A DNA stretch of 34,969 nt from NCBI GenBank assembly GCA_964639165.1, contig CAZXCH010000001.1, positions 1 through 34,969 of the forward strand. The letters run 5' to 3'. This stretch comes from an uncultured Candidatus Saccharibacteria bacterium. GTDB lineage: Bacteria; Patescibacteriota; Minisyncoccia; UBA6257; 2-01-FULL-56-20. The translations under genes and the position numbers were made by a program. The notes beneath the pieces were generated by a model. The model was given only the letters and a program-made list of their open reading frames with translations. It ran no database searches and was not told the DNA's origin. Every line of letters starts with the position of its first letter. Within the stretch, counting starts at the first letter, position 1. Positions 2 to 20,198 of the stretch are shown one piece after another.

Positions 2-208
2 ACATCGTGCGTAACAACCAACAGATGCCCCTCAACCGAAAACAGCGATGGCACTCCGCTTTATAATTGGACCGCGCCCGGATCGATGGAGGGAGCCGGC
101 AACGGACAAAACATCACGCTTACCTATTCCATCCCGGGAACGTATTCGGTAAGCGTGATCGCCTCCACTGATAATTCGCAATCAAGCTGCCAGATCCACG
201 TACAATGA
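2..208 (+). CDS. 3' end of an upstream gene (partial, start outside window) with a PKD/Ig-like beta-sandwich C-terminus
   Basis: The frame is open from the window edge to TGA 206-208; it is absent from the ORF track because it has no start. ...NWTAPGSMEGAGNGQNITLTYSIPGTYSVSVIASTDN... resembles a PKD repeat. The stop overlaps the next start (ATGA 205-208). Confidence 0.5.
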   Translation, partial: TSCVTTNRCPSTENSDGTPLYNWTAPGSMEGAGNGQNITLTYSIPGTYSVSVIASTDNSQSSCQIHVQ

Positions 209-2229
209 AGTTGAAAAATCCTCTAAAAAATGGGTTGAGGAAGGAAGTAGTCATTACGGCTATTCTCGGTTTCTTTTTAATATTTTTTGGATTAACACGC
301 CCGGCACGTGCTGATGGCTTATTTGATATAAGCGGCTTCACGTCTGGAGCTATTTCGATGTTGATGGAGGGCATCACCTATATTTTGGCTTGGATTTTTG
401 GCGCCTTCATTTCCATAGAAACATGGCTCATTAGTATCGTTTTAAATATCAACGCTAATATACTGCAAACGAGCTTTGTTCAGACCGGATTTTCAATATC
501 GCTTTCCGTTGCAAACCTCGCATTCGTACTGGGGATCATCGTAATTGCGCTTGCAACGATATTGCGAATAGAAAACTACAGTATTAAAAAAATGCTCTGG
601 AAGCTGGTGATTATGGCGATCCTTGTTAATTTCGGCCTCGTAATCATTGCGCCAATCTTTGCGTTCGCCAATGCAACCACGCAGTATTTTCTCAATTCTT
701 TCCCTGGCCAGGGAGGATTCAGTAGTTTTGCGTCAACGATGGCGGGGAAATTCAATCCACAGGCAATGTTTGCCGCAGTCTCGAATCCAACGCCGGGGTC
801 GGGGAATAGTACCGGGCCTTTTGGTCTTTCAGCATCGGGAGTCGGCCAGTCAATAAGCGCGCAGATGGTTCCGATCTTTAGCATGCTTTTTACTGTCGTC
901 GACTTTTTGCTTATTATTTGTGTGCTTGGGGCATTCATTGTTATGTTAATAATAAGATACATCTATATCGCAATTCTCGCGATTCTATTGCCGTTTGCTT
1001 GGGCGTCATGGGTATTCCCAAGTTTCAGCTCGCTGTATTCCAAATGGTGGAATAAATTCCTCCAGTGGACGTTTTTCGCGCCCATCTTTATGTTTTTTCT
1101 TTACTTGGCGCTCTCCACGATTGGAGGAGCCAACAACGCGGATGCCTTTAATTTAACCAATTATACACAGGGGAGTGGAGGCTCTCTCTTTTCCCCTATC
1201 ACAGATTTTTTCGGTGGCATCATAACCCCGATCCTTACCAACTTCCTTCAAGAAGTGGTGCTTGGTGGCATGATTATCGGCGGCATGATCGCGGCAGATA
1301 GCATGGGCGTCAAGTTTGCAGGCACGGTCGTTAACTTCGCGAAAAAACAAGCGGGGACTTTTGCTACTAATCGATGGAATTCGGCCAGACGGCGCGCAAG
1401 TGAAAAGTTGAGATCGATGGGGAAGAAAACCGATGAGCAGGGGAACACCTCTACAACACTCCAAAGAGTGGGCTCAAAGTTCCAGGGATCGCCCTTACCT
1501 TTTGCGAAAACCGTCGGTTCTAAAATTGCAAGTGCAGGCTCCCCGGAGGTGGGCAAAGAAGACCGCATAAAGGATGTTGATAAATATGTAGAAGAAAACC
1601 TAAAGGGGTTGACTAACGACGGCATGCTCGCGCGTGCGAACGGCATTAATGCCATGACAAGCGACCGCGAACTTGCTGCAATTGGGCAGGAATTGTCCAG
1701 GAGAAACCTTACTGCGCCGCCGACCGCTACGACCCCCGGACTTGATCCAACAAAACTGGAAGCCCTTATTAAGGGAGCTGAAAACATGGGCAGCGTCCAG
1801 TCTCTTCTTAACAGCCGTCCAGAGCTAGCGGCACAAACAACTGCTGCTACTCCGAGGATGCTTCCTACCGGGGTTATGGAAACGACTGCACAAGCTATCG
1901 AAAGAGCGATTACAGATGCAGTGAAGAAAATAAAAATCGCTGACATCCCAACGCTTGAAGCTCGATCATTAGGTGACCCCTCTAAACCAGCTGGTACTTC
2001 TCCAACTCCCGAACAGGAGAATATAGCTATAAACATGTCCATTCCACAACTGAACAAGCTGGCTACCGAAGGAGGACCTGGAGCGGCGGCGGCGTATAAA
2101 GATACTATTGAAAGAATGGTGACTGCTGCTACCGCTCCGGGCGCACCCGCACTTCCTCCAGCCACGCTCGCAAAATTAAATAATCTATATACGTACGTGA
2201 GCGCATCGCCTGCGTGGCAGTATATATAA
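205..2229 (+). CDS. polytopic membrane protein, candidate TrbL/VirB6-like T4SS channel component
   Basis: 674 aa with a signal-like N-terminus and about 8 or more hydrophobic helices over the first ~400 aa, then a soluble A/P/T-rich C-terminal region. Topology and position beside the PrgI and VirB4 genes fit the call. There is no motif-level proof. Confidence 0.5.
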   Translation: MKLKNPLKNGLRKEVVITAILGFFLIFFGLTRPARADGLFDISGFTSGAISMLMEGITYILAWIFGAFISIETWLISIVLNINANILQTSFVQTGFSISLSVANLAFVLGIIVIALATILRIENYSIKKMLWKLVIMAILVNFGLVIIAPIFAFANATTQYFLNSFPGQGGFSSFASTMAGKFNPQAMFAAVSNPTPGSGNSTGPFGLSASGVGQSISAQMVPIFSMLFTVVDFLLIICVLGAFIVMLIIRYIYIAILAILLPFAWASWVFPSFSSLYSKWWNKFLQWTFFAPIFMFFLYLALSTIGGANNADAFNLTNYTQGSGGSLFSPITDFFGGIITPILTNFLQEVVLGGMIIGGMIAADSMGVKFAGTVVNFAKKQAGTFATNRWNSARRRASEKLRSMGKKTDEQGNTSTTLQRVGSKFQGSPLPFAKTVGSKIASAGSPEVGKEDRIKDVDKYVEENLKGLTNDGMLARANGINAMTSDRELAAIGQELSRRNLTAPPTATTPGLDPTKLEALIKGAENMGSVQSLLNSRPELAAQTTAATPRMLPTGVMETTAQAIERAITDAVKKIKIADIPTLEARSLGDPSKPAGTSPTPEQENIAINMSIPQLNKLATEGGPGAAAAYKDTIERMVTAATAPGAPALPPATLAKLNNLYTYVSASPAWQYI

Positions 2230-2236
2230 CAAACAC

Positions 2237-3220
2237 ATGGATTCTAAGACGTTTCTCTTAAAAATTAAGGATACTCCGCCCTCCATTCGTACATGGTTTG
2301 CTTCCGGGGAGGTTTCCCTGATGGTTCGCACAATCAACCAGCACTTTAATATACAAAAAGGAAGCGAAACCGTCCTCCCTAAATTATTGGCTCGCTTGGA
2401 AGTGCGTGATATAGCCCCCGATTATTTCGCCGGAGAACTCTCAGAAGAGTTGAAATTGGATCGGGATAAAGCATTGGGTATTTCCACGGAAGTTAAACGA
2501 ACTATCCTAACTCCACTAACAAAAGAATTCTTGGCTTTTGGTGTTGACATCTCCCTTTTAGATAAATTCCAGATCCCCACTATAAAAGACTTAAGTCCGA
2601 GTGCGACCATGGCAATAGTGAACGGTCCGAAAATTATCCAGGATGTGAGCATCACTCCTCCAAAACCTGTGGCGCTCCCCGCTGTCGGTTGGTCAAAAAT
2701 GCCGGCCTCCACATTCTCATCCACGCCCACACCGGTGCCTCCCGTCACGCCGCGACCCATAACCCCGCTCGCGCCGATAGCTCCGGCAGCCCCGGCTGAA
2801 CCTGCCCCCATAATCCTTCACGAGGATACGGCGTTCAAAGCGGTAGAAAAAAATGCGGGCTTTACGCTTGCCCGGCCGGGAGGAGGAGCGGATATGCAAC
2901 TCGGCGGACATGGAAGCTCCTCCGTCCCAACTCCACCGCGGCCGGCGGTTTTGGAATTCGGCGGGGCAAAACCAGCGGCTCCAATGCCGAGCGCAGTTCA
3001 CAATACCGGGCAAAGTGTCCCGCTCTCCGCGATGCCAACGGCCAATACCGGCCCGAGGAGCGTAAGTCAGATTACGCCCGTCGCCGCTATACCGACGCCG
3101 CCGAAACCGCCCGCACCTCCGATGTCGCCAGCGCCGTCTAACATTGTTCCAATGCCGCAACCGCCGCAACCGCCTTCTGCTCCACAATCCGCCAAGCCGA
3201 TCGTTAAGGACTTTCTTTAG
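2237..3220 (+). CDS. hypothetical protein: ~130-aa N-terminal domain followed by a ~200-aa Pro/Ala-rich extended region
   Basis: Long ORF starting 8 nt after the upstream stop. Pro-rich low complexity (PPKPPAPPMSPAPS, PQPPQPP). No recognisable domain. Confidence 0.6.
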   Translation: MDSKTFLLKIKDTPPSIRTWFASGEVSLMVRTINQHFNIQKGSETVLPKLLARLEVRDIAPDYFAGELSEELKLDRDKALGISTEVKRTILTPLTKEFLAFGVDISLLDKFQIPTIKDLSPSATMAIVNGPKIIQDVSITPPKPVALPAVGWSKMPASTFSSTPTPVPPVTPRPITPLAPIAPAAPAEPAPIILHEDTAFKAVEKNAGFTLARPGGGADMQLGGHGSSSVPTPPRPAVLEFGGAKPAAPMPSAVHNTGQSVPLSAMPTANTGPRSVSQITPVAAIPTPPKPPAPPMSPAPSNIVPMPQPPQPPSAPQSAKPIVKDFL

Positions 3221-7284: not shown

Positions 7285-8001
7285 ATGTCCGCTCGTTCTA
7301 CTATCCGAAAAGTGGTCTTCCTGGGGCTTTTGGTTTTTTCTGCCGTTTTCTTCTTTTCGTTCTGCGGGGCCCATGCCCAAACCGCATCGTCGCCCAAGTT
7401 TTTGCTGACCTGGAAGGCATCCAATAGTTATATCCCTTCGTTCTATGAGGGAAAAGCACTCCCGTCCTCGGGAGGCACGAAGATCACTGCATCGCTTGAG
7501 CTGATCTCAAACGGAAAGCTCGTCAATCTTAGTAACCAAAATATTTATTGGTATGAGGATGAAATTTTGGTAGGAGGTGGGGCCGGGGTGCAGCAAGTGA
7601 CATTTACTCCATTTGGAACGCCGCCCAGCACCCTTGTGTTAAGCGTGCAGCTCCCCCAATATAGTGGCGGCTATCTCACCCACACCGTCAACATTCCTTT
7701 CGTAACCCCTTTGGCGGTGATTGACGCCCCGTATCCAAACCAAGAATTTTCCACAAATCTTCTTACGCTACAAGGGCTACCGTTCTTTTTCAATGCAACA
7801 TCAACGAACAACATTTCGTTCACGTGGTCGGTCAACGGCCAAACCGGAGCGAACGCGGAAAATCCTCAAGTGGCCGAGATCAGTCTCCCACCAGGAACCC
7901 CGGGCGGAACGAATTTTGGCGTCTCGCTTTCTATCAGCAATTTCCAAGGGGCCACGGTCGCAAACACGAATCAGGAATTCACATTCCAAAATCAATTATG
8001 A
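7285..8001 (+). CDS. secreted beta-rich protein of unknown function
   Basis: Signal peptide MSARSTIRKVVFLGLLVFSAVFFFSFCGAHAQ. An AGGAAAG motif lies upstream. The stop overlaps the next start (ATGA at 7998-8001). Confidence 0.6.
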   Translation: MSARSTIRKVVFLGLLVFSAVFFFSFCGAHAQTASSPKFLLTWKASNSYIPSFYEGKALPSSGGTKITASLELISNGKLVNLSNQNIYWYEDEILVGGGAGVQQVTFTPFGTPPSTLVLSVQLPQYSGGYLTHTVNIPFVTPLAVIDAPYPNQEFSTNLLTLQGLPFFFNATSTNNISFTWSVNGQTGANAENPQVAEISLPPGTPGGTNFGVSLSISNFQGATVANTNQEFTFQNQL

Positions 8002-8666
8002 TGAACTTTCTTTTTTTGGTGGCACATGCGGTTACCATCAGCACCGCCATCCCCGGCACCAATCCGAATAGCACGAGCTCCTCGCCGGGGGCGTTCGTGG
8101 CGAACTTCTATCAATTCGCATTGATGATCGGAGGAATCCTTGCCTTGGGTGCCATCGTGTACGGAGGGGTCAGATATGTGGCTTCCGCAGGCAATCCTTC
8201 CGCCCAAAGCGATGGGAAGGAATGGATCTGGGGGGCATTGATCGGACTCCTGCTCCTTGCCGGAGCCTATCTGGTGCTGAACGTCGTGAATCCCCAGCTC
8301 GTGAACCTCAATCTGCCTACCCTGAATCAGATATCGGCGGTGAATAATACGACGGTGGCGCCGGGAAATTATACAACCGCCTCAACGTGCCAGGCTACTT
8401 CCAATGGAGGTTCGACCGGAACATGTCAACCCGACGCAAGCGGTAAAAATCAAAACTGCTGTAATCTTAACGGACTGGGGATCTGCACTACCGACTCGTG
8501 CTCGGATCTGTCAAATTTACAATGTCGGGCCACTTCTAATGGAGGCACAACCGGATCTTGCCCAAATCTTAATGGGGCGGCCCAAAATTGTTGTTATTCT
8601 AGCATCGATGATAGTGCGATCTGCGTAACCGAGACGTGCGCCGATTTTGCCGCCGAGGCCCAATAA
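7998..8666 (+). CDS. VirB2/TrbC-like T4SS pilin with two C-terminal six-cysteine modules
   Basis: Hydrophobic leader, then two TM helices (FYQFALMIGGILALGAIVYGGVRYV and WIWGALIGLLLLAGAYLVLNVV) joined by a short polar loop, which is the pilin hairpin topology. The C-terminus carries a tandem C-x11-C-x9/10-CC-x7/9-C-x4-C repeat. The start was trimmed to ATG 7998, coupled to the upstream stop. Confidence 0.6.
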   Translation: MMNFLFLVAHAVTISTAIPGTNPNSTSSSPGAFVANFYQFALMIGGILALGAIVYGGVRYVASAGNPSAQSDGKEWIWGALIGLLLLAGAYLVLNVVNPQLVNLNLPTLNQISAVNNTTVAPGNYTTASTCQATSNGGSTGTCQPDASGKNQNCCNLNGLGICTTDSCSDLSNLQCRATSNGGTTGSCPNLNGAAQNCCYSSIDDSAICVTETCADFAAEAQ

Positions 8667-10026: not shown

Positions 10027-10040
10027 TAAGGCCTTGGAAT

Positions 10041-10075
10041 AAAAAACACCCGCTTCATCGTCGGGTGTTTTTTAT
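10041..10075. terminator. bidirectional intrinsic terminator between convergent genes
   Basis: AAAAAACACCCG-cttcatcgt-CGGGTGTTTTTT, with an A-run and a T-run flanking the GC stem. Confidence 0.75.
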
Positions 10076-10509
10076 TCCAATATCGGCTTGATGATGACAT
10101 ATCGTTCCTTTCCCTCGCCCGCACTTTCGGTCTTCACCTCCGGGTGGACAGCAAGTTCCATATGCACCAATCTGCGTTCGTATGAGTTCATCGCCGGAAG
10201 CGCGACTTCCTTCTTTGTGACGGCCGCCTTCTTCGCCGCAGCGCGGGCGAGTTCCGCGATCAGTCGCTCGCGGTCGTGCCGGTAGTTATTGATGTCAAGA
10301 AATATCGCTTCGGTCTGATTTTTTTTGGCCACCATCTGGAGGATATGGTTCACCGCATCCACGATTGCCGGGAGGTTTTCCTTCACCATCTCTTGGTCCT
10401 CGTAGATAAAAACCGATCCCCTCCTCTCGTCTATTTTGATCTCCAAACGATAATCGGTGAACCCGATGAGGTCTAATGTTTTTTTAATGTATGATTCCCA
10501 GTTGTCCAT
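10072..10509 (-). CDS. jag: Jag/KhpB-type KH + R3H RNA-binding protein
   Basis: R3H motif region (ERRLVHMELAVHPEVKTESAGEGKERYVIIKP). It occupies the conserved position downstream of yidC. Confidence 0.75.
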   Translation of the reverse strand: MDNWESYIKKTLDLIGFTDYRLEIKIDERRGSVFIYEDQEMVKENLPAIVDAVNHILQMVAKKNQTEAIFLDINNYRHDRERLIAELARAAAKKAAVTKKEVALPAMNSYERRLVHMELAVHPEVKTESAGEGKERYVIIKPILE

Positions 10510-10557
10510 GCGTTCCCGTAACTATTCCATGTTTTCCCAATAAAATCAAGCTTGATA

Positions 10558-10616
10558 GGCAAAATATCCTCTTCGCCGAACGGTCATCTGCCCGGAGGCG
10601 AAGAGGATATTTTGCC
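10558..10616 (-). repeat. perfect 20-bp hairpin with a 19-nt loop (conserved-loop hairpin, copy 1)
   Basis: 10558-10577 is the exact reverse complement of 10597-10616. The loop on the sense (minus) strand is TCCGGGCAGATGACCGTTC. The hairpin lies 10 nt downstream of the yidC stop. Confidence 0.9.
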
Positions 10617-10626
10617 GTACCGGGCG

Positions 10627-11340
10627 TTATACGCCGTACTTTTTCTGCAAATGCTTGTTCACGAAGTACTGCTGGACGGCGGAAAAGAGCGCACTCATAA
10701 GCCAATAGAGACTGAGGGCGGCAGGGAAATTATAGAAAACGAGGATGGTGATGATCGGACCGACGAACACCATCTGGCGGGCGATCTTTTCCGCCTGCGT
10801 CGGCGCGCTCGTGTTATTAGGGTTGCGATAAATGGCGAGGCGCGCTTGAAGATATTGCGCGAGGGCGGCCGCGAGAATGAGGATAAGATTAGGATTCGCG
10901 AGATTGATAAAACCAAGGAAGACGGTATTTATTTTTTCTGGCGTCGCGATGAAGGAATAAAGTCCCGTCAGTTGAGCGGTGCCGACGCCCGAACGGATGA
11001 CCCAGTAGAAGGTGAGAAGGATCGGGATTTGGATGATGAGAAGCAATATCCCGGAGAAAGGATTGACGCCGTGTTCTTTGTAGAGCTCCATCAACGCCTT
11101 TGCCTGCTGATCACGGTCGTCTTTGTGTTTCGTCTGGATATCTTTTATCTTCGGCTGAATGCGCTGCATCAGCATTTGCTGTTTCGCCCCGGTATGGAAG
11201 AACGGATAGAGGATGAGGCGGATAAAAAGCGTCACTAATATGATCGCGATGCCGAGATCGTGGAACCCAATCGTTTGATAGAAAAAAATAAGTAGGTTGA
11301 GGATTGGCCGGTAGAGTATCTGCTGATAAAGATAGACCAT
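10627..11340 (-). CDS. yidC: membrane protein insertase YidC (short form)
   Basis: 237 aa with 5 TM helices. YidC/Oxa1-type sequence and the conserved rnpA-yidC-jag order. Confidence 0.85.
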   Translation of the reverse strand: MVYLYQQILYRPILNLLIFFYQTIGFHDLGIAIILVTLFIRLILYPFFHTGAKQQMLMQRIQPKIKDIQTKHKDDRDQQAKALMELYKEHGVNPFSGILLLIIQIPILLTFYWVIRSGVGTAQLTGLYSFIATPEKINTVFLGFINLANPNLILILAAALAQYLQARLAIYRNPNNTSAPTQAEKIARQMVFVGPIITILVFYNFPAALSLYWLMSALFSAVQQYFVNKHLQKKYGV

Positions 11341-11345
11341 AATTT

Positions 11346-11666
11346 TTATTTTAATTGTGCTTTCGTAAATGCTTTGGCAAGTTCTTCTTGAAACTGCTTT
11401 TTCGTAAGGCGATTCACGCCACGCGAAACTATTATAAGGATATCATTTCCCGTTGTCGTTTGATTCCTAAGCCCGGCCAACACCTGTCTCTTCCAAAAAT
11501 TTCTTTTTACCGCTGTTTTATGGACCGACATCCCCACCACCACACCGATCCGCGCGTTCCCGACGGTGTTCTTTTTTGTTTTTAACAGGAAAAACGGGGT
11601 TGGGATTGTCTTATATCCTTTCGCCCGAAACTGATCCGAGGAGAGACGCGCTGTTTTAGCGGCCAT
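11346..11666 (-). CDS. rnpA: ribonuclease P protein component
   Basis: The motif HKTAVKRNFWKRQV matches the RNase P protein RNR motif. It lies directly downstream of rpmH. Confidence 0.85.
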   Translation of the reverse strand: MAAKTARLSSDQFRAKGYKTIPTPFFLLKTKKNTVGNARIGVVVGMSVHKTAVKRNFWKRQVLAGLRNQTTTGNDILIIVSRGVNRLTKKQFQEELAKAFTKAQLK

Positions 11667-11684
11667 AAAGGCAGGAAAAGCGTT

Positions 11685-11819
11685 TTATACGGCTAATTTC
11701 TTCCTTCCCTTCGCGCGGCGACGGGAAAGAACGCGGCGGCCGGTAGGCGTTGCCTGGCGGACCAAAAAGCCGTGAGTTGTCTTTCGTTTTTTCTTCTTGG
11801 GGTTGTATGTGAACGACAT
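11685..11819 (-). CDS. rpmH: 50S ribosomal protein L34
   Basis: Hand translation gives [44 protein letters not shown] (44 aa). It is too short for the ORF track, and the overlapping 161-aa ORF 11656-12141 is spurious. Confidence 0.9.
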
Positions 11820-11826
11820 TCCCTCG

Positions 11827-11854
11827 ATGATACCACATCGTTTTTAAAAAGCAA
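11827..11854 (-). promoter_or_regulatory. rpmH promoter; -10 lies 7 nt from the ATG
   Basis: The minus strand reads TTGCTT-16 nt-TATCAT-7 nt-ATG. Confidence 0.5.
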
Positions 11855-11987
11855 AACATCACACCGTGGCGTTTTCCCGCTCTCCCCATGTAATCCCCAG
11901 GAAAGGAACTTTTCTGCCTTTCCCTCGCCTTTGACTTGTTCCCTGGAAGAGATAATAATGAATCCACAAACTTAATTATTTTTAACC

Positions 11988-13343
11988 ATGGACCTTGAAC
12001 AAATGTGGCAGTCGACGTTGGGGGAGATGGAGGTTCAACTGACGAAGGCGCATTTTGCGACGTGGTTAAAAAACAGCCGACCGATCGATAAAAAAGATGA
12101 TACGCTATTTGTCGCGCTCCCAAGTAATTTTGCGAAAACATGGGTAGAGGAAAAATATCAGAAAAATATCATCGGCATCGTCCGGAACATGGACACGTCG
12201 GTCAAAAAGATAGAATTTGTGGTGGGAAATAAGAGCCTCCCCCCCAGCAAGGCCGACGCCGCCACAAAAGACACGCCAAACAGCACCGGCGCCGAGCTTG
12301 ATTTCAATAAAACCGATCCGGAAACAGGGCTGAACCCAAAATATACCCTCTCCTCGTTCGTTGTCGGCCCTTCGAATGAACTCGCGTTCGCCGCTGCCGC
12401 AGCGATCACGGAAGGCCCCGGCAAAAAATATAATCCATTCTTTATTTATGGCGGCGTCGGCTTGGGAAAAACACATCTTATCCAAGCGATTGGTAATGAA
12501 ATCGTCGCAAAATATAAAAACAAGATAAAACCCAAATACGTTTCCTCGGAACAGTTCACGCGCGATATTGTGTGGGGGTTGCGAAACGACCGCATCGAGA
12601 GCGTAAAGAAAAAATATCGCGACGTTGATGTGTTGATCATCGACGACATCCAATTCATAGGGGGGAAAGAAAAGACCGAAGAAGAGTTTTTCCATACTTT
12701 TAACGCTCTCTACGAAAGCAACAAACAGATCATTATTTCATCCGACCGGCCGCCACAATCACTGCCAACCCTCCAGGAACGCCTTAGGTCGCGTTTTGAA
12801 GGCGGCCTTATCACCGATGTGTCTTACCCGGAATACGAGATGCGCGTAGCGATCATCCGCAGCAAACTTCAGGAGATGAACCGGAAACTCTCCGATCCGG
12901 TAGTGGATCTCATCGCGAAGAAGCTCAGAAAGAACATCCGGGAATTGGAGGGGGTCCTTAAAAAGATCATATTTTATGAGGAACGGAAGCAGACCGAGAT
13001 CAGTATTAAGATGGCCGAGGAGATCATCGAAAAGACTACCCAAAACCTATCAAAAAGGGTTGCCGACTCCCAAATATTGAAAGCGGTCGCCGAGTTCTTT
13101 GGCATCACCGTGGAGGATCTTGTAAGCCATAATCGCCGTAAAGAAGTGGTGGAGCCACGTCAGATTGCAATCTATCTTCTTCGGGATATCTCGGACCTTT
13201 CCTATCCGTATATTGGTGAGAAGCTGGGGAGAGATCACACCACAGCCATCCACTCCTACGAAAAGATCAACCAGGAAATCAACAGGAATCCCGCACTTAA
13301 TCAAAAGATATTAACAATAAAGGATATCATTTATAAGAGTTAA
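11988..13343 (+). CDS. dnaA: chromosomal replication initiator DnaA
   Basis: Walker A is GGVGLGKTHL and Walker B is VLIIDDIQF. The C-terminal DNA-binding domain contains HTTAIHSYEKI. Confidence 0.95.
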   Translation: MDLEQMWQSTLGEMEVQLTKAHFATWLKNSRPIDKKDDTLFVALPSNFAKTWVEEKYQKNIIGIVRNMDTSVKKIEFVVGNKSLPPSKADAATKDTPNSTGAELDFNKTDPETGLNPKYTLSSFVVGPSNELAFAAAAAITEGPGKKYNPFFIYGGVGLGKTHLIQAIGNEIVAKYKNKIKPKYVSSEQFTRDIVWGLRNDRIESVKKKYRDVDVLIIDDIQFIGGKEKTEEEFFHTFNALYESNKQIIISSDRPPQSLPTLQERLRSRFEGGLITDVSYPEYEMRVAIIRSKLQEMNRKLSDPVVDLIAKKLRKNIRELEGVLKKIIFYEERKQTEISIKMAEEIIEKTTQNLSKRVADSQILKAVAEFFGITVEDLVSHNRRKEVVEPRQIAIYLLRDISDLSYPYIGEKLGRDHTTAIHSYEKINQEINRNPALNQKILTIKDIIYKS

Positions 13344-13476
13344 TCCCGTCGCTATCCACACACACAACGCCGCGTAGAGCTTATTAGTATTGAATAATAA
13401 AAAATTATCCCCAGAAATATTCATTACTAATAACAATAATCATAAAAAGTATTTAAATATAAACTATAATTAAGAG
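13344..13476. other. putative oriC / DNA-unwinding region in the dnaA-dnaN spacer
   Basis: DnaA-box-like sites CTATCCACA (13352-13360) and TTATCCCCA (13405-13413). About 95 bp is strongly AT-rich (13381-13476). The gene context is the canonical origin arrangement. Confidence 0.5.
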
Positions 13477-14589
13477 ATGAAATTTATCGCGATACGGGCA
13501 AACATCAAGGATGCTATTTCAGTGATTGAGAAAGCGGTTGGGGAAAACACCAACCTCCCAATATTGAAAAATATTCTTATTGAGGCGGAGGATAACACCA
13601 TTACTTTTACCGCCACCAATCTTGAAATTGCGATAACGCACCGTGTCGCGGGAAAGGTGATTGAGAACGGGAAACTAACCATCCCACTTACCCTTTTTTC
13701 AAGCCTTATTGGGAACATCCAAAGTGACCGGTTGAATTTTGAGAAAAAGGAAAGTAACCTCGAGATTGCCACGGATAATTACAGCGCGGTGATCAATGGT
13801 ATGCCGGCCGACGATTTCCCCATCACCCCAAAAATAAAAAATCTTGAAAATTATATCGAGATAAAAAGCGTTTTTCTTAAAGAAGCCATCCAGCAAGTTA
13901 CGGTCGCGTCGCAATATTCAGACCTTCGCCCGGAACTAAACAGCGTCTTGTTTAATTTCTCACTCGAAAACCTCATACTTGCCTCCACTGATGGTTTCCG
14001 TTTGGCGGAAAAATCCATCCCATCGAATATTTTTAGCGTAAAAGGGAAAGAGCCGTTCAAAATACTCATCCCGCTCAGGACGAGCCTTGAGGCCGCGAGG
14101 ATTATGCGCGACGACGAAGTGGTGCGGATATACCAGGATGAGAACCAAGTTCTGTTTAAAACCGATCAAACCGAGATGATATCCCGCCTGGTGGAGGGTA
14201 GCTTCCCGGACTATTCCGCGATCGTTCCCCATGAGTTCGCTGCGGAAATCGTGGTGGAGCGGGACGAATTTTTAAGCGCGATAAAGCTCGCCGGTGTGTT
14301 TGGGCAAAAAAACAGCGAGGTAAAAATAAAGATCCATCAGAATAAGAAAGCGATAGAGATCAATTCGGCGGATCAAGCGCTCGGTGAGAACAATCATATT
14401 CTTCCGGCAAAAATAAAAGGCGATATTCCCGAGGTATTTTTCAATTGGCGCTATCTTTCCGATCCGATGAAGGGCATTAAAGCGGAAGACGTGTTCCTCG
14501 GCCTTCAGGAGGATGCGGGCCCGGCACTTATCCGTTCGGTGAGCGATCAATCGTATTATTACGTCCTCAAGCCTATTTTAAAATCCTAA
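13477..14589 (+). CDS. dnaN: DNA polymerase III beta sliding clamp
   Basis: 370 aa with a typical clamp N-terminus (LPILKNILIEAEDNTITFTATNLEIAI). It follows dnaA. TATAAT at 13465-13470 lies exactly 6 nt before the ATG. Confidence 0.9.
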   Translation: MKFIAIRANIKDAISVIEKAVGENTNLPILKNILIEAEDNTITFTATNLEIAITHRVAGKVIENGKLTIPLTLFSSLIGNIQSDRLNFEKKESNLEIATDNYSAVINGMPADDFPITPKIKNLENYIEIKSVFLKEAIQQVTVASQYSDLRPELNSVLFNFSLENLILASTDGFRLAEKSIPSNIFSVKGKEPFKILIPLRTSLEAARIMRDDEVVRIYQDENQVLFKTDQTEMISRLVEGSFPDYSAIVPHEFAAEIVVERDEFLSAIKLAGVFGQKNSEVKIKIHQNKKAIEINSADQALGENNHILPAKIKGDIPEVFFNWRYLSDPMKGIKAEDVFLGLQEDAGPALIRSVSDQSYYYVLKPILKS

Positions 14590-16775: not shown

Positions 16776-16816
16776 AGATAAAAAACACCCCATGCTTAGA
16801 AAAGCATGGGGTGTTT
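16776..16816 (-). terminator. intrinsic terminator (15-bp stem, T-run on the minus strand)
   Basis: AAACACCCCATGCTT-agaa-AAGCATGGGGTGTTT, followed on the minus strand by TTTTTTATCTC. Confidence 0.8.
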
Positions 16817-18104: not shown

Positions 18105-19781
18105 ATGCTCGACGCACCTCAAAAAGACCTTACCGAGAAGCTCGCAAAACTGCGGCGTGACGGGGAAGAGCGTGCCGCCGAGCGGCTCGCCGAGAAGCTG
18201 GGGCTTTCGTATGTGGACCTGGCGAAGATCCCCGTATCACTCGATGCGGTAAGGATATTGCCGGAGACCGAGGCGAAGGACGCGAAGGTGGCCGCCATCG
18301 AGCTGAAAGCGAAAAAAGTAGCGCTCGCGGCAATCAACCCCGAGCTTCCCGCCACAAAAAAAGCGCTCGAAGAACTCGTCGGAAAAAAGTATGAGGTGAA
18401 AGTCGTTGTGGTTTCCCCGTCAAGTATGGAGGCCGCATGGCGCTTTTATCAATTCGTGAAACCGGAAACGGGAAATATCACGGGAAAGGTGGAGATACCT
18501 CAAGAGCGCCTCGACGCATTAAAGGCAAAACTGGTGACGATCGATGCGGTCCATAAGGAGATCGGTGCGCTCCCGCTCGCGAATGTTTCTCCGGTAGCGT
18601 TGATTGAGATCATCCTGGCGGGCGCGATGGGCTTGCGTGCGTCGGATATTCACACCGAGGCGGAAGAGAAGAAAGCGAAGATCCGTTTCCGCATCGACGG
18701 GTTGCTGCACGACATGTTCGACGAGATCCCGCTCGATGCGTATCACACGTTCGTGTCGCGCATCAAACTTCTTTCCGAGATGAAGTTGAACGTTCGCGAC
18801 GCGGCGCAGGACGGCCGCTTCACGATCGGGCTTGGGCAAAAAGATATCGAGATGCGCGTATCCGTGATCCCGGCGGAGTTCGGCGAAACGATCGTCATGA
18901 GAATTCTTGACCCGTCCGCGACGATGGTGACACTGCCGCAGCTTGGGCTTCGTGCGGACAACCTCGCTCTTGTTATGAAGAAAATATCCCAACCGAACGG
19001 GTTGATATTGAACACCGGCCCGACGGGTTCCGGAAAAACAACGACACTCTACGCATTCCTGCGCACCATGAACGATCCGACGATGAAGATCATCACCCTG
19101 GAGGATCCGATCGAGTATCGCATTGATGGTATTGAACAGACACAGATCGACGAGGAGGCGGGATATACCTTTGGCAACGGCTTGCGGGCCATCGTGCGGC
19201 AGGATCCGGATGTGATCCTTGTCGGCGAGGTACGTGACCTTGAGACGGCGGACATCGCGCTCGAAGCGGCGCTCACGGGGCACTTGGTGTTATCCACGCT
19301 TCACACGAACGATGCCGTGGGAGCCGTGCCGCGTTTGATCAATCTTGGCGTGAAGGCGGTGAGCATCGGGCCGGCGCTTTCGCTCGCGATAGCGCAACGT
19401 CTCGTGCGCGTGTTGTGCAAGGAGTGTAAAAAGGAGGCTCCGGTGGATGGACCGACAGCGGAGAAGATAACCAAACTCCTCGCCGCGCTGCCGGCGAAGG
19501 TGGATAAAAAAGTTTATGACGGCTATAAGATCTACGCGCCGGTGGGCTGCGAGAAATGCAATGGCATCGGATACAAAGGTCGCGTCGGTGTATTTGAGTT
19601 TTTAGAAGGCGGCCCGGATTTGGAGAAGACGATTTTGCGCGAGGCATCGGAGGTCTCGCTTCGCGAGGTTGCGCAGCGGCAGGAGATGGTCACTATGCAG
19701 CAGGACGGCATCCTGAAAGTACTCGAAGGGAAGACGACGTTTGATGAAGTGACGGGAGCCACCGGAGACTTGGTGTGGTAA
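18105..19781 (+). CDS. pilB: GspE/PilB-family type II secretion / type IV pilus assembly ATPase
   Basis: Walker A is GPTGSGKTTT, Walker B is ILVGEVRD and the His box is LSTLHTNDA. A tetracysteine motif reads CKEC...CEKC. The start was chosen at ATG 18105 rather than the ORF-track position 18072, based on promoter geometry. Confidence 0.85.
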   Translation: MLDAPQKDLTEKLAKLRRDGEERAAERLAEKLGLSYVDLAKIPVSLDAVRILPETEAKDAKVAAIELKAKKVALAAINPELPATKKALEELVGKKYEVKVVVVSPSSMEAAWRFYQFVKPETGNITGKVEIPQERLDALKAKLVTIDAVHKEIGALPLANVSPVALIEIILAGAMGLRASDIHTEAEEKKAKIRFRIDGLLHDMFDEIPLDAYHTFVSRIKLLSEMKLNVRDAAQDGRFTIGLGQKDIEMRVSVIPAEFGETIVMRILDPSATMVTLPQLGLRADNLALVMKKISQPNGLILNTGPTGSGKTTTLYAFLRTMNDPTMKIITLEDPIEYRIDGIEQTQIDEEAGYTFGNGLRAIVRQDPDVILVGEVRDLETADIALEAALTGHLVLSTLHTNDAVGAVPRLINLGVKAVSIGPALSLAIAQRLVRVLCKECKKEAPVDGPTAEKITKLLAALPAKVDKKVYDGYKIYAPVGCEKCNGIGYKGRVGVFEFLEGGPDLEKTILREASEVSLREVAQRQEMVTMQQDGILKVLEGKTTFDEVTGATGDLVW

Positions 19782-19847
19782 TAGTGTTTCGTATTCTCGG
19801 CTCCAAGCAGATGACCGTTCGCCGCGAATACGAAACACCATTACCAC
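19775..19847 (+). repeat. 26-bp hairpin (2 mismatches) with a 19-nt loop (conserved-loop hairpin, copy 2)
   Basis: 19775-19796 pairs with 19826-19847 with 1 mismatch, and 19798-19801 pairs with 19821-19824. The loop is TCCAAGCAGATGACCGTTC (19802-19820). The hairpin overlaps the pilB stop codon. Confidence 0.9.
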
Positions 19848-19878
19848 GGTTGTTCTTTAAAAAGGGAAAGAAGAAGAT

Positions 19879-19907
19879 AAAAAAATAAGCGCGGACGCTT
19901 ATTTTTC
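19879..19907. terminator. bidirectional intrinsic terminator
   Basis: AAAAAAATAAGCG-cgga-CGCTTATTTTT, with 7 T on the minus strand and 5 T on the plus strand. Confidence 0.75.
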
Positions 19908-20128
19908 AAGATTGAAAGTAGTAAACTCAGACCTGGGGGCAATTCCTCGCGAAAGGATAATGATCTCTTCTATCTAATGATAAAAGAGGCTAGAATTACT
20001 CAAAGGATATAACCAGCCGGAACCGGTTAGTCCTGTAGTTTTTAGAAATAACTCCCGCCCCCAGATCTGAATCAGCTACTTTTAATGAACATCGGTTAAC
20101 TTGCCAGCAGCCCATATTTATTGAGCAC
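19879..20128 (-). ncRNA. candidate ~250-nt orphan transcript (structured sRNA or small-ORF mRNA)
   Basis: A minus-strand promoter at 20135-20163 and the terminator at 19879-19907 bracket a region with no conserved gene. Inside it, a 14-bp helix (13/14 paired) joins 19927-19940 to 20057-20070. Confidence 0.35.
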
Positions 20129-20134
20129 TGAGAT

Positions 20135-20163
20135 ATGTTAGCATATAGAATATTATTTGTCAA
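20135..20163 (-). promoter_or_regulatory. sigma70-type promoter reading away from ruvB
   Basis: The minus strand reads TTGACA-17 nt-TAACAT. Confidence 0.5.
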
Positions 20164-20198
20164 GCCCCAGCTTATCCCCACATAATCCACACTCGCCC

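What the first reader, a model, noticed from the sequence alone, without database searches (positions are those of the whole stretch)
19775..19847. Copy 2 of the conserved-loop hairpin overlaps the pilB stop codon and is followed by a separate canonical terminator
GTGGTAATAGTGTTTCGTATTC (19775-19796) pairs with GAATACGAAACACCATTACCAC (19826-19847) with one A/C mismatch. CGGC (19798-19801) pairs with GCCG (19821-19824), giving 26 bp around the 19-nt loop at 19802-19820. The left arm begins in the last codons of pilB (TAA at 19779-19781). A conventional bidirectional intrinsic terminator lies only about 30 nt further on, at 19879-19907. The long hairpin is therefore not needed for termination. 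A 26-bp RNA duplex is also far longer than typical terminator stems and is RNase III-sized. This argues for a role distinct from termination, such as 3'-UTR processing, mRNA stabilisation or a docking site.
Basis: partly seen in the sequence, partly recalled or inferred. Interest (0 to 1): 0.7.

Follow-up and report, generated by a model that had tools for sequence, protein, structure and literature searches.

The report
Conserved-loop 3'-end hairpin repeat family
The long hairpin at the end of pilB is real and is one copy of an undescribed repeat family in tiny soil bacteria (Paceibacterota): a nearly constant 19-base loop sits on stems that differ at every site, placed right at the ends of genes and tRNAs, and what it does is still unknown.

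Summary
In detail: 26 bp around a 19-nt loop at 19775-19847, with the left arm starting in the last pilB codons. Copy 1 lies at 10558-10616 on the minus strand, after yidC.

It is not an idiosyncratic terminator. The same loop (TCCNNGCAGATGACCGTTC, closed by yTTCGCC/GGCGAAr) tops more than 100 distinct hairpins in a Paceibacterota clade. None occur in phage contigs, none match Rfam, and the sequence is absent from the literature.

- **Arms:** copy-specific, about 97% Watson-Crick, median 23 bp (ordinary terminators there: 13 bp).
- **Position:** they start at a gene's stop codon or a tRNA's 3' end, about 10:1 in the sense orientation.
- **Terminator features:** about 70% carry A/T tracts like bidirectional terminators. 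The pilB-site copies mostly do not.
- **pilB site in relatives:** same loop with homologous arms (all changes compensated, including an indel), same loop with unrelated arms, left arm only, an ordinary hairpin, or empty.
- **Variants:** discrete loop subtypes and other apical modules share this architecture.

Best reading: a REP-like 3'-end palindromic element with a conserved apex and arms templated from the local flank. It acts as an RNA 3'-end hairpin whose loop docks an unknown factor. Mechanism and factor are inferred, not shown.

The parts
19775..19801 (+). Left arm of copy 2. The first 7 nt are the last pilB codons plus the stop (GTG GTA A; TAA at 19779-19781). The inner 4 nt, CGGC, are the conserved-type closing stem.
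   Evidence: (I1)
19802..19820 (+). Conserved 19-nt apical loop TCCAAGCAGATGACCGTTC (type A1; family consensus TCCAGGCAGATGACCGTTC).
19821..19847 (+). Right arm of copy 2. It is an inverted copy of the left arm, including the complement of the pilB stop codon (TTACCAC).
18105..19781 (+). pilB (T2SSE/GspE-type pilus ATPase, 558 aa as in its orthologues). This is the upstream gene whose 3' end the hairpin caps.
19879..19907 (.). Ordinary bidirectional intrinsic terminator (11-bp stem, 4-nt loop, A-tract and T-tract). It is shared by pilB and the convergent minus-strand RNA gene.
19912..20163 (-). Convergent, highly conserved, unannotated RNA gene (body about 170 nt) with its promoter (TTGACA-17-TAACAT at 20163->20135). 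It is neighbouring context, not part of the element.
10558..10616 (-). Copy 1 of the family. On the minus strand the left arm is 10616-10597, the loop is 10596-10578 (TCCGGGCAGATGACCGTTC) and the right arm is 10577-10558. The arms pair 20/20. It starts 10 nt after the yidC stop and lies upstream of the conserved jag promoter-like motif.
   Evidence: (I15, I2)
10627..11340 (-). yidC (60KD_IMP), the upstream gene of copy 1.

Best explanation
The pilB hairpin is one member of a dispersed, REP-like family of 3'-end palindromic elements found in one clade of Paceibacterota (CPR bacteria). Its architecture is inverted relative to known repeats. The conserved part is the apex: an 18-19-nt single-stranded loop (type A1: UCCNNGCAGAUGACCGUUC) closed by a short GC-rich stem (yUUCGCC/GGCGAAr). 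The long stem below it is different at every locus. The left arm is simply the local 3' end of the upstream gene (its last codons plus stop, or the 3' end of a tRNA) together with the sequence that follows it. The right arm is an inverted copy of that sequence. Shown: family membership, conservation of the apex, the local origin of the outer left arm, strict Watson-Crick pairing maintained by compensated changes, the position at 3' ends, the roughly 10:1 sense orientation, and rapid gain and loss between close relatives. Inferred: (i) The element is co-transcribed with pilB and folds into a very stable 3' hairpin right at the stop codon. Where a U-tract follows (about 70% of copies) it is the (bidirectional) intrinsic terminator. 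At pilB, where the U-tract is poor and a shared terminator lies 30 nt downstream, it acts as a 3'-end barrier or insulator against exonucleases and against read-through from the convergent RNA gene. (ii) The exposed loop is a docking site for a clade-specific trans-acting factor, most simply an RNA-binding protein or nuclease that uses the loop as an anchor. This would explain why the loop sequence and its orientation are kept while the stems change freely. (iii) Arms are created and kept perfect by templated copying of one arm from the other (fold-back or template switching at the palindrome), so the unit that is gained or lost is 'loop + right arm'.
For: Family: an exact-loop scan of 185,579 species genomes gave 30 loci, 29 of them hairpins and almost all in Paceibacterota/Parcubacteria/Minisyncoccia MAGs, with up to 15 copies per MAG. 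The JGI metagenome scan gave 71 distinct hairpins and only 2 armless chance hits. The viral-contig scan (capped at 120 hits) gave only armless or coding matches. Apex versus arms: across 35 aligned copies, 11 of the 19 loop positions are invariant and 6 more are at least 90% conserved (only positions 4-5 vary freely), while 13 of 14 stem pairs covary, 97.1% of cells are paired, and 0 of 500 shuffles reach that. Conservation decays gradually outward from the closing pair. Arms have a median of 23 bp against 13 bp for ordinary terminators in the same DNA (p = 6e-18). Loop lengths are bimodal, 3-10 nt versus a spike at 19. Context: a gene 3' end abuts the sense side only in 29 cases and the antisense side only in 3. 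A same-strand tRNA ends within -8 to +8 nt of the left arm in 12 of 69 cases, with further cases. Upstream genes have no common function. Of 35 copies, 22 have T-tracts on both strands. Orthology: L135/L144, L133/L150 and L129/L143 keep the loop and show compensated arm changes. Window versus L157 shows 3 compensated substitutions, one tracking the TAA->TGA stop change, plus a compensated 1-nt indel. Five genomes carry the loop at the pilB stop and three at the yidC stop. Unit of change: L250-L254 have the homologous left arm ending in TTCGCC joined directly to the right flank, without loop or right arm. At yidC, the empty site in L159 retains a left-arm-like segment.
Against: No transcript, 3'-end or protein-binding data exist, so every functional step is inference. 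Close relatives lack the pilB copy entirely (L255, L159, L163, L256), which means weak selection at this locus. Arm mismatches are A.C-type twice as often as G.U-type on the sense strand (34 versus 16). This gives no sign of selection on a sense-strand RNA helix, although bidirectional use would also demand strict Watson-Crick pairs. Discrete loop subtypes (A2-A4) recur identically at different loci and co-occur with A1 on the same contigs. That looks more like master-copy proliferation than a single binding specificity. The fold-back model is contradicted by clean empty sites that lack the inner left arm (L255, L159 at pilB). It is also contradicted by one case where an apical module sits inside a pre-existing terminator with homologous arms (L159:7958-8033 versus window 16783-16816). 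No candidate trans-acting factor was identified.
Confidence: 0.45

Rival explanations
1. A purely host-encoded cis-acting RNA motif with no mobility. The hairpin is a 3'-UTR/3'-trailer processing or stability signal whose conserved loop positions a dsRNA-specific enzyme (RNase III or Mini-III type) or another RNA-binding protein at a fixed distance along a roughly 23-bp stem. The analogy is yeast Rnt1p measuring from AGNN tetraloops. Copies arose in place by ordinary evolution of terminators.
For: Strong sense orientation (29:3; tRNA 12:2). Loop conserved at orthologous sites while the arms drift. A narrow arm-length distribution centred on 22-25 bp, about two helical turns and the length range of RNase III substrates. 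Enrichment after tRNA genes, which need 3' processing.
Against: Identical 19-mers at more than 100 unrelated loci cannot arise independently, so some copying process is required. Discrete subtypes co-occur in one genome. Presence or absence varies between close relatives and there is a half-site. G.U pairs make up less than 1% of stem pairs, and sense-strand A.C mismatches outnumber them.
Confidence: 0.2
2. A selfish or neutral palindromic repeat with no RNA-level function. A tiny apex sequence spreads among gene-end hairpins by template switching, conversion or an unknown enzyme. It is merely tolerated there because terminator apices and 3' flanks are safe sites in a compact genome.
For: Subfamilies with identical loops at different loci and in different genomes. 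Other apical modules (B, C, D) share the same architecture, and module B occupies the very yidC site in L161. Rapid gain and loss, and dispensability at pilB. Fuzzy element boundaries, with a gradient of conservation in the inner stem. No sense-strand G.U tolerance.
Against: A roughly 10:1 orientation bias relative to the upstream gene is not expected for a symmetric target unless insertion or selection is coupled to transcription. Loops at orthologous sites change less than the arms and flanks. No two loci share arms, so there is no sign of very recent transposition. No autonomous parent was found among 30 + 83 pattern hits.
Confidence: 0.2
3. A DNA-level site. The palindrome extrudes as a hairpin or cruciform (for example on the lagging-strand template or behind RNA polymerase). 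Its single-stranded loop is then recognised by a DNA enzyme or binding protein: an HUH nuclease or RAYT-like transposase, a recombinase, a nucleoid or gyrase-type binder as at BIMEs, or a DNA-uptake receptor.
For: Stems behave like DNA palindromes: strict Watson-Crick pairing, transitions of both kinds, and a compensated indel. In the window both copies flank the dnaA/oriC region, and each has its sense strand on the presumed lagging-strand template. pilB and competence pili are present.
Against: The orientation bias follows the adjacent gene at about 90%, which is higher than a replication-based bias filtered through gene-strand bias should give (inference). The copy density (about one per 20-60 kb) is far too low for uptake sequences. 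No Y1/HUH or recombinase gene was seen next to copies in the annotated loci, though this was not searched systematically.
Confidence: 0.1
4. An idiosyncratic long terminator or a chance inverted repeat at pilB with no wider significance.
For: A U-rich run (UUGUUCUUU) follows the stem in the window. An ordinary terminator occupies the same site in L161.
Against: The same loop occurs in more than 100 hairpins elsewhere. 0 of 200 shuffles fold as well. The U-run is not conserved in L157, L158, L160 or L151.
Confidence: 0.02

Closest known systems
REP / BIME / REPIN elements of proteobacteria (RAYT-associated extragenic palindromes)
   Same: Short dispersed palindromes in tens of copies. They sit in 3' intergenic positions, are co-transcribed as 3' hairpins, persist at orthologous sites, and show lineage- or subfamily-specific sequence types. 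REPs stabilise upstream mRNA and, when within about 15 nt of a stop codon, interfere with terminating ribosomes (from established literature, not tested here).
   Different: In REP/REPIN the conserved sequence is the stem (with a GTAG/CGTC head) and the loop or spacer is variable. Here the loop is conserved and the stems are locus-specific and derived from the flank. No RAYT was identified. The copy number is lower.
Bidirectional intrinsic (Rho-independent) terminators
   Same: Position at gene ends, a GC-rich stem core, an A-tract on the left and a T-tract on the right in about 70% of copies, and stems that often overlap the stop codon, as ordinary terminators do in these genomes.
   Different: A 19-nt sequence-conserved loop instead of 3-8 arbitrary nucleotides. 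Stems are about 10 bp longer. The pilB-site copies lack a conserved U-tract and are followed by a normal terminator.
Rnt1p (yeast RNase III) substrates with AGNN tetraloops; histone mRNA 3' stem-loop/SLBP
   Same: A functional analogy only: a variable stem capped by a conserved loop that a protein reads in order to act on an RNA 3' region.
   Different: Different organisms, a much larger loop, and no evidence here for cleavage or binding.
Correia (CREE), ERIC, RUP, RPE and other bacterial MITE-like hairpin repeats
   Same: Dispersed, transcribed, hairpin-forming repeats, some of them RNase III substrates and some affecting neighbouring gene expression.
   Different: Those have conserved terminal inverted repeats and direct target-site duplications. 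Here there are no conserved termini, and the 'duplication' of the flank is inverted.
TIGR-Tas stem-loop arrays (PMC12045711)
   Same: Found in CPR or parasitic bacteria. Units have variable palindromic stems flanking a functional loop.
   Different: TIGR units are tandem arrays beside a Tas (Nop-domain) gene, and their loops hold two variable spacers between short box C/D motifs. Here the copies are dispersed singletons with an invariant loop at gene 3' ends.

Membership tests
Intrinsic (Rho-independent) terminator | GC-rich stem-loop with a short loop (about 3-8 nt) | tested here: not met
   The loop is 19 nt. The terminator scan does not call it. Ordinary terminators in the same genomes have loops of 3-10 nt.
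Intrinsic (Rho-independent) terminator | U-tract immediately 3' of the stem | tested here: inconclusive
   The window copy has 6 T in the best 8-nt window, starting 2 nt after the stem. Orthologous copies L157, L158, L160 and L151 have 3-4. Family-wide, 25 of 35 copies have a T-tract of at least 6 of 8 on the sense strand.
REP/REPIN (RAYT-associated) | Conserved palindromic arm sequence with a GTAG/CGTC head; variable loop | tested here: not met
   Arms are unrelated between copies and the loop is conserved.
REP/REPIN (RAYT-associated) | A cognate RAYT (Y1 HUH transposase) gene in the genome | not tested
   Only fragments of genomes were held. No such domain appeared among the genes annotated around the copies.
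MITE | Conserved terminal inverted repeats and direct target-site duplication; a related autonomous IS | tested here: not met
   The outer arms are locus-specific. The flank copy is inverted, not direct. No pattern hit lies within a larger element.
Integron attC site | Conserved R''/R' (RYYYAAC / GTTRRRY) at the base of an imperfect hairpin; arrays next to intI | tested here: not met
   The stem bases (GTGGTAAT.., GGCAAAAT..) lack these motifs. The copies are dispersed singletons.
TIGR-Tas stem-loop array | Tandem array of units beside a Tas gene; loop with two variable spacers | tested here: not met
   Copies are single with an invariant loop, and the neighbours are housekeeping genes.
Any Rfam 15 RNA family | Covariance-model match at the gathering score | tested here: not met
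   No hit at the gathering threshold in the window or in 36 related loci. At E<=10 only spurious miRNA-precursor or leader models appear, far below their thresholds.
RNase III substrate | Roughly 20 bp or more of near-perfect dsRNA | tested here: met
   25 Watson-Crick pairs here; family median 23 bp. Actual cleavage cannot be tested with these tools.
DNA uptake sequence (DUS/USS type) | Very high genomic density (about one per kb), orientation-independent | tested here: not met
   2 copies in 35 kb; at most about 15 per MAG; strong orientation bias.

The most novel reading that the evidence does not exclude
The only propagated, non-templated information is the roughly 19-nt loop. A new copy would arise when the loop is laid down after a TTCGCC-like motif at a transcript's 3' end, and the upstream 20-25 nt are then copied back in inverted orientation (fold-back synthesis, possibly primed on the RNA or at a stalled 3' end). 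Such a process would create palindromes from gene ends in a transcription-oriented way. That would be a minimal, transposase-less kind of mobile unit that builds its own stem from the host's sequence, with several competing loop 'species' (A1-A4, B, C, D) in one CPR clade.
Probability: 0.2. Interest if true: 0.85.

Novelty: new variant of a known kind. Interest (0 to 1): 0.65.

Why it matters
Dispersed hairpin repeats (REP, ERIC, Correia and others) are known only with conserved stems. A family with a conserved apex and stems borrowed from whatever gene end it sits on is the mirror image. It raises two questions that can now be tested.

1. What reads a 19-nt loop at the 3' ends of mRNAs and tRNAs in CPR bacteria? 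Almost nothing is known about the RNA metabolism of these organisms.
2. How are perfect, flank-derived palindromes generated and maintained?

The family also gives a ready marker for 3' ends of transcription units in uncultured Paceibacterota, and a natural series (full hairpin, left arm only, empty site) for studying palindrome birth and death. For the window itself the practical message is narrower. The pilB hairpin is a repeat-family member and is dispensable in close relatives, so it is not a pilB-specific regulator.

Tried and rejected
1. **Phage or mobile origin.** The 14-mer core was scanned in IMG/VR.
2. **Known RNA family.** Rfam at the gathering score on the window and 36 loci, and permissive scans of 19700-19950 and 19870-20170, gave nothing meaningful. 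A resemblance I recalled between the loop and a segment of E. coli 4.5S/SRP RNA was not borne out, because no SRP model appears even at E<=10.
3. **Loop similar or complementary to rRNA.** The best ungapped matches to a 16S and a 23S from the same clade are no better than shuffled loops.
4. **Hammerhead, K-turn or C/D-box, T-loop, PyrR-site, CsrA-site and Cheo-box likenesses.** I considered these by eye and rejected each because key invariant positions are absent or fall in the variable part. These are reasoning only, not tests.
5. **TIGR-Tas stem-loop arrays.** I read the paper and the architecture differs.
6. **Literature.** The loop sequence occurs only in unrelated chicken qPCR primers. 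Keyword searches for conserved-loop/variable-stem repeats in CPR found nothing relevant.
7. **Functional theme among upstream genes.** None was found.
8. **Strain-level polymorphism.** Three contigs with 100% identical PilB all carry the identical hairpin.
9. **tRNA-Gly filled versus empty comparison (L129 versus L143).** The loci are not syntenic downstream, so it is uninformative.
10. **Simple slippage between direct repeats as the origin of the L250 half-site.** The junction does not fit the available CCAG repeats (by inspection).
11. **A lineage-specific loop shift in L160 as evidence of co-evolution with a factor.** This is weakened because the same variant (A2) co-occurs with A1 on contig L172.
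Full report
**1. The observation**

The sequence at 19775-19847 is as described. The 22-nt outer arms have a single A/C mismatch. A 4-bp CGGC/GCCG inner stem is separated from them by one T/C mismatch. The loop is 19 nt, TCCAAGCAGATGACCGTTC. The pilB ORF stops at 19779-19781. It is a T2SSE/GspE ATPase, and its orthologues are 558 aa, so the gene is 18105-19781.

As RNA the hairpin folds at -41 kcal/mol, z = -5.6. The only other match to the loop in the window is on the minus strand at 10578-10596. It lies inside a perfect 20-bp hairpin (10558-10616) that starts 10 nt after the yidC stop. Both copies therefore present the loop in the sense of the gene that ends just upstream.

**2. It is a family**

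An exact scan for the loop plus its closing C-G pair over one genome from each of 185,579 species returned 30 loci. Of these, 29 are hairpins, and all but one of those come from MAGs labelled Paceibacterota/Parcubacteria/Minisyncoccia or simply "uncultured bacterium"; the exception (L131) is labelled delta proteobacterium. One MAG carries 13 exact copies plus 2 variants. The same scan of JGI metagenomes gave 83 loci with 71 distinct hairpins and only 2 armless chance hits.

Phage contigs contain the 14-mer core only by chance or inside coding sequence. Rfam 15 has no matching family. The loop sequence does not occur in the searchable literature. The window's own organism is a Paceibacterota bacterium seen in several peat and rhizosphere assemblies.

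**3. Anatomy**

In 35 aligned copies, 11 of the 19 loop positions are invariant, 6 more are at least 90% conserved, and only positions 4-5 vary freely. The closing pair is always C-G. The next pairs are conserved at 83, 91, 83, 77 and 63% (consensus yTTCGCC/GGCGAAr), and beyond that the stem is effectively random sequence. Even so, 97.1% of stem cells are standard pairs and 13 of 14 pairs covary (0 of 500 shuffles).

| Feature | Family hairpins | Ordinary terminator-like hairpins, same DNA |
|---|---|---|
| Arm length, median | 23 bp (mean 23.0, sd 4.2) | 13 bp |
| Loop length | spike at 19 nt | 3-10 nt |

The arm-length difference has p = 6e-18, and the loop-length distribution is bimodal. 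Pairing is almost purely Watson-Crick. Among about 2,200 pairs there are 34 A.C-type and 16 G.U-type mismatches on the sense strand. The stems therefore do not show the G.U tolerance of a helix selected only in the sense RNA.

**4. Context**

The left arm begins within a few nucleotides of the end of an upstream same-strand gene, or overlaps it.

- In the metagenome set, a gene end abuts the sense side only in 29 cases, the antisense side only in 3, both sides in 28 (convergent genes), and neither in 9. By my arithmetic the two-sided binomial p for 29:3 is about 3e-6.
- A same-strand tRNA ends within -8 to +8 nt of the left arm in 12 of 69 copies, against 2 convergent.
- The genome set shows the same pattern for tRNA-Gly, Pro, Val, Ala and Ile, and one copy lies just upstream of a 16S promoter.
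- Upstream protein genes are unrelated housekeeping genes.
- Of 35 copies, 22 carry a left A-tract and a right T-tract like bidirectional terminators, 3 are sense-only, 1 is antisense-only and 9 have neither. The five pilB-site copies are all in the poor or none group.

Ordinary terminators in this clade also overlap stop codons (window 10034-10080 over the jag stop; L161 at pilB). That feature is therefore not special to the family.

**5. Orthologous sites**

Syntenic loci from PilB relatives show the following at the pilB stop codon.

| State at the pilB stop | Loci (PilB identity to the window) |
|---|---|
| Identical hairpin | same species: L247-L249 (100%) |
| Homologous arms, every difference compensated | L157 (92%) |
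| Same loop (variants), unrelated arms | L158 (89%), L160 (83%), L151 (not determined) |
| Homologous left arm ending in TTCGCC joined directly to the right flank; no loop or right arm | L250-L254 (89%) |
| Clean empty site | L255 (91%), L159 (87%), L163 (72%) |
| Ordinary 16-bp hairpin with a TATT loop and U-tract | L161 (81%) |
| Other hairpins | L162 (78%), L256 (88%) |

The window/L157 differences are three substitutions, one of which tracks the stop codon change TAA->TGA, plus a 1-nt indel present in both arms. The window's two mismatches are perfect pairs in L157. In every filled genome the distal right arm complements that genome's own stop codon (TAA, TGA or TAG).

At the yidC stop, the window, L144 (homologous arms) and L160 carry the family hairpin. 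L159, L162 and L163 are empty, L157 has another hairpin, and L161 has a long hairpin with a different 56-nt apex. Elsewhere, L135/L144, L133/L150 and L129/L143 are orthologous pairs with identical or near-identical loops and compensated arm changes.

Because the outer left arm is a tRNA 3' end or the last conserved codons, it is ancestral. The right arm must therefore have been made to match it.

**6. Subtypes and sister modules**

A covariance model of the core found secondary copies that define discrete loop subtypes.

- A2, TCCCGGCAGATGATAGTTC: L160 and L172.
- A3, TCCYRRAAGATTAAT(A)GTC: L183, L210 and L201.
- A4, TCGTGMTAAGAAKAATTC: L160, L204 and L212.

All have the same closing stem, and they co-occur with A1 on the same contigs. 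Three other apical modules (B about 56 nt, C 30 nt, D about 20 nt) show the same design of a conserved apex on locus-specific arms. Module C sits in a terminator whose arms are homologous to an ordinary terminator in the window. None matches Rfam.

**7. The neighbourhood of copy 2**

The terminator at 19879-19907 lies between pilB and a convergent, unannotated RNA gene on the minus strand. That gene has a body of about 170 nt that is almost invariant in 8 genomes and a conserved TTGACA-17-TAACAT promoter at 20163->20135. It has a multi-stem consensus fold with 9 covarying pairs and no Rfam hit. The 'separate canonical terminator' is thus shared, and the family hairpin sits between two converging transcription units.

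**8. Interpretation**

Shown:
- a dispersed, clade-restricted, orientation-specific family of 3'-end hairpins with a conserved apex and flank-derived, strictly complementary stems;
- persistence at some orthologous sites;
- fast turnover at others.

Inferred:
- the hairpin is transcribed with the upstream gene and acts as a generic 3'-end structure, a terminator when a U-tract follows and otherwise a barrier or insulator;
- the exposed loop is read by an unknown factor, which would explain the conservation of its sequence and orientation;
- the arms are produced and kept perfect by templated copying within the palindrome, as suggested by the compensated indel, the stop-codon tracking and the left-arm-only state.

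The subtypes, the fuzzy boundary of conservation and the rapid gain and loss show that a copying process spreads the apex, as with REP-type repeats. I could not decide between three possibilities: a host-useful RNA signal, a tolerated selfish repeat, or both. I give the combined REP-like reading 0.45. The evidence does not support a pilB-specific regulatory role.

**9. Caveats**

- Most copies were found with an exact-loop pattern, which inflates apparent loop conservation and the share of type A1. The unbiased copies (PilB-based loci and secondary CM hits) show 0-5 substitutions.
- ORF calls in the context statistics are heuristic, so the 'both sides' class is probably inflated.
- Genome taxonomy rests on record titles.
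- No expression data were available.

Noticed in passing
window 19912-20163, minus strand: An unannotated, highly conserved RNA-like gene between pilB and ruvB. Its body of about 170 nt is almost invariant in 8 genomes and more conserved than the flanking proteins. It has a conserved TTGACA-17-TAACAT promoter and a multi-stem consensus fold with 9 covarying pairs, and it ends at the shared terminator 19907->19880. There is no Rfam match even at E<=1.
   Followed up: partly
L161:1864-1977, L160:18086-18219, L159:17143-17260: A second hairpin family ('module B'). It has a conserved apex of about 56 nt (..CGGAGsCGCGAAGGCGsCGAG..TAGCG.TTTTTCAGCAGAAAAA.ACGCG) on locus-specific perfect arms of 26-39 bp. 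In L161 it occupies the same yidC 3' site as the window's copy 1. No Rfam match.
   Followed up: partly
L159:7958-8033 versus window 16783-16816 and L157:7769-7816; L162:~7960-8040: At the terminator upstream of the PBP gene, the arms are homologous across genomes. The 4-nt loop of the window and L157 is replaced by a 30-nt apical insert in L159 and a 39-nt insert in L162. So apical modules can sit inside pre-existing terminators.
   Followed up: partly
L162:11691-11735 and L256:~2944-2985: Another apex type downstream of pilB (..GGCA GATC...TC.. TGCC..) is shared by two genomes that lack the family-A hairpin there.
   Followed up: no
L160:1405-1474, L204:1108-1153, L212:1386-1431, L183:12019-12064, L210:93-138, L201:1137-1183, L172:4709-4755: Loop subtypes A2, A3 and A4 of the same superfamily. 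Each recurs with an identical or near-identical 18-19-nt loop at different loci and in different genomes, and each co-occurs with type A1 on the same contigs.
   Followed up: partly
L250-L254, just after the pilB stop (e.g. L250:2378-2396): A solo 'left arm' (GTGTGAACGTATATTCGCC) homologous to the window/L157 arm, joined directly to the right flank with no loop or right arm. It is either a pre-insertion state or a precise arm-plus-loop deletion.
   Followed up: partly
window 10509-10560 (minus strand) and orthologues: A conserved promoter-like motif CTTGATTTT..N..TGGAATAGT lies between the yidC hairpin and the jag start in all relatives. jag probably has its own promoter, so copy 1 may end the rnpA-yidC transcript rather than sit inside an operon.
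   Followed up: no
window 10072-14589: The window spans the rpmH/rnpA-yidC-jag | dnaA-dnaN junction, which is the probable replication origin region. The two family copies lie on either side of it, each with its sense strand on the presumed lagging-strand template.
   Followed up: no
L158:650-1609: An rve-type (IS481/IS3-like) transposase gene lies immediately upstream of pilB in one relative, replacing the usual yebC/ruvC neighbours.
   Followed up: no
L132:87-315 and 922-3096: A group I intron lies next to a 23S rRNA gene whose span (about 2.2 kb) is short for the full-length model. A family hairpin sits between tRNA-Pro and this 23S gene.
   Followed up: no
window 113-159: A 12-bp hairpin with a 23-nt loop (TATTCCATCCCGGGAACGTATTC) upstream of the first large ORF. 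It is unrelated to family A.
   Followed up: no
L131 (CAVXGH010000012.1): A contig of a MAG labelled 'delta proteobacterium' carries a typical family hairpin after a topA gene. This is probably a mis-binned Paceibacterota contig.
   Followed up: no
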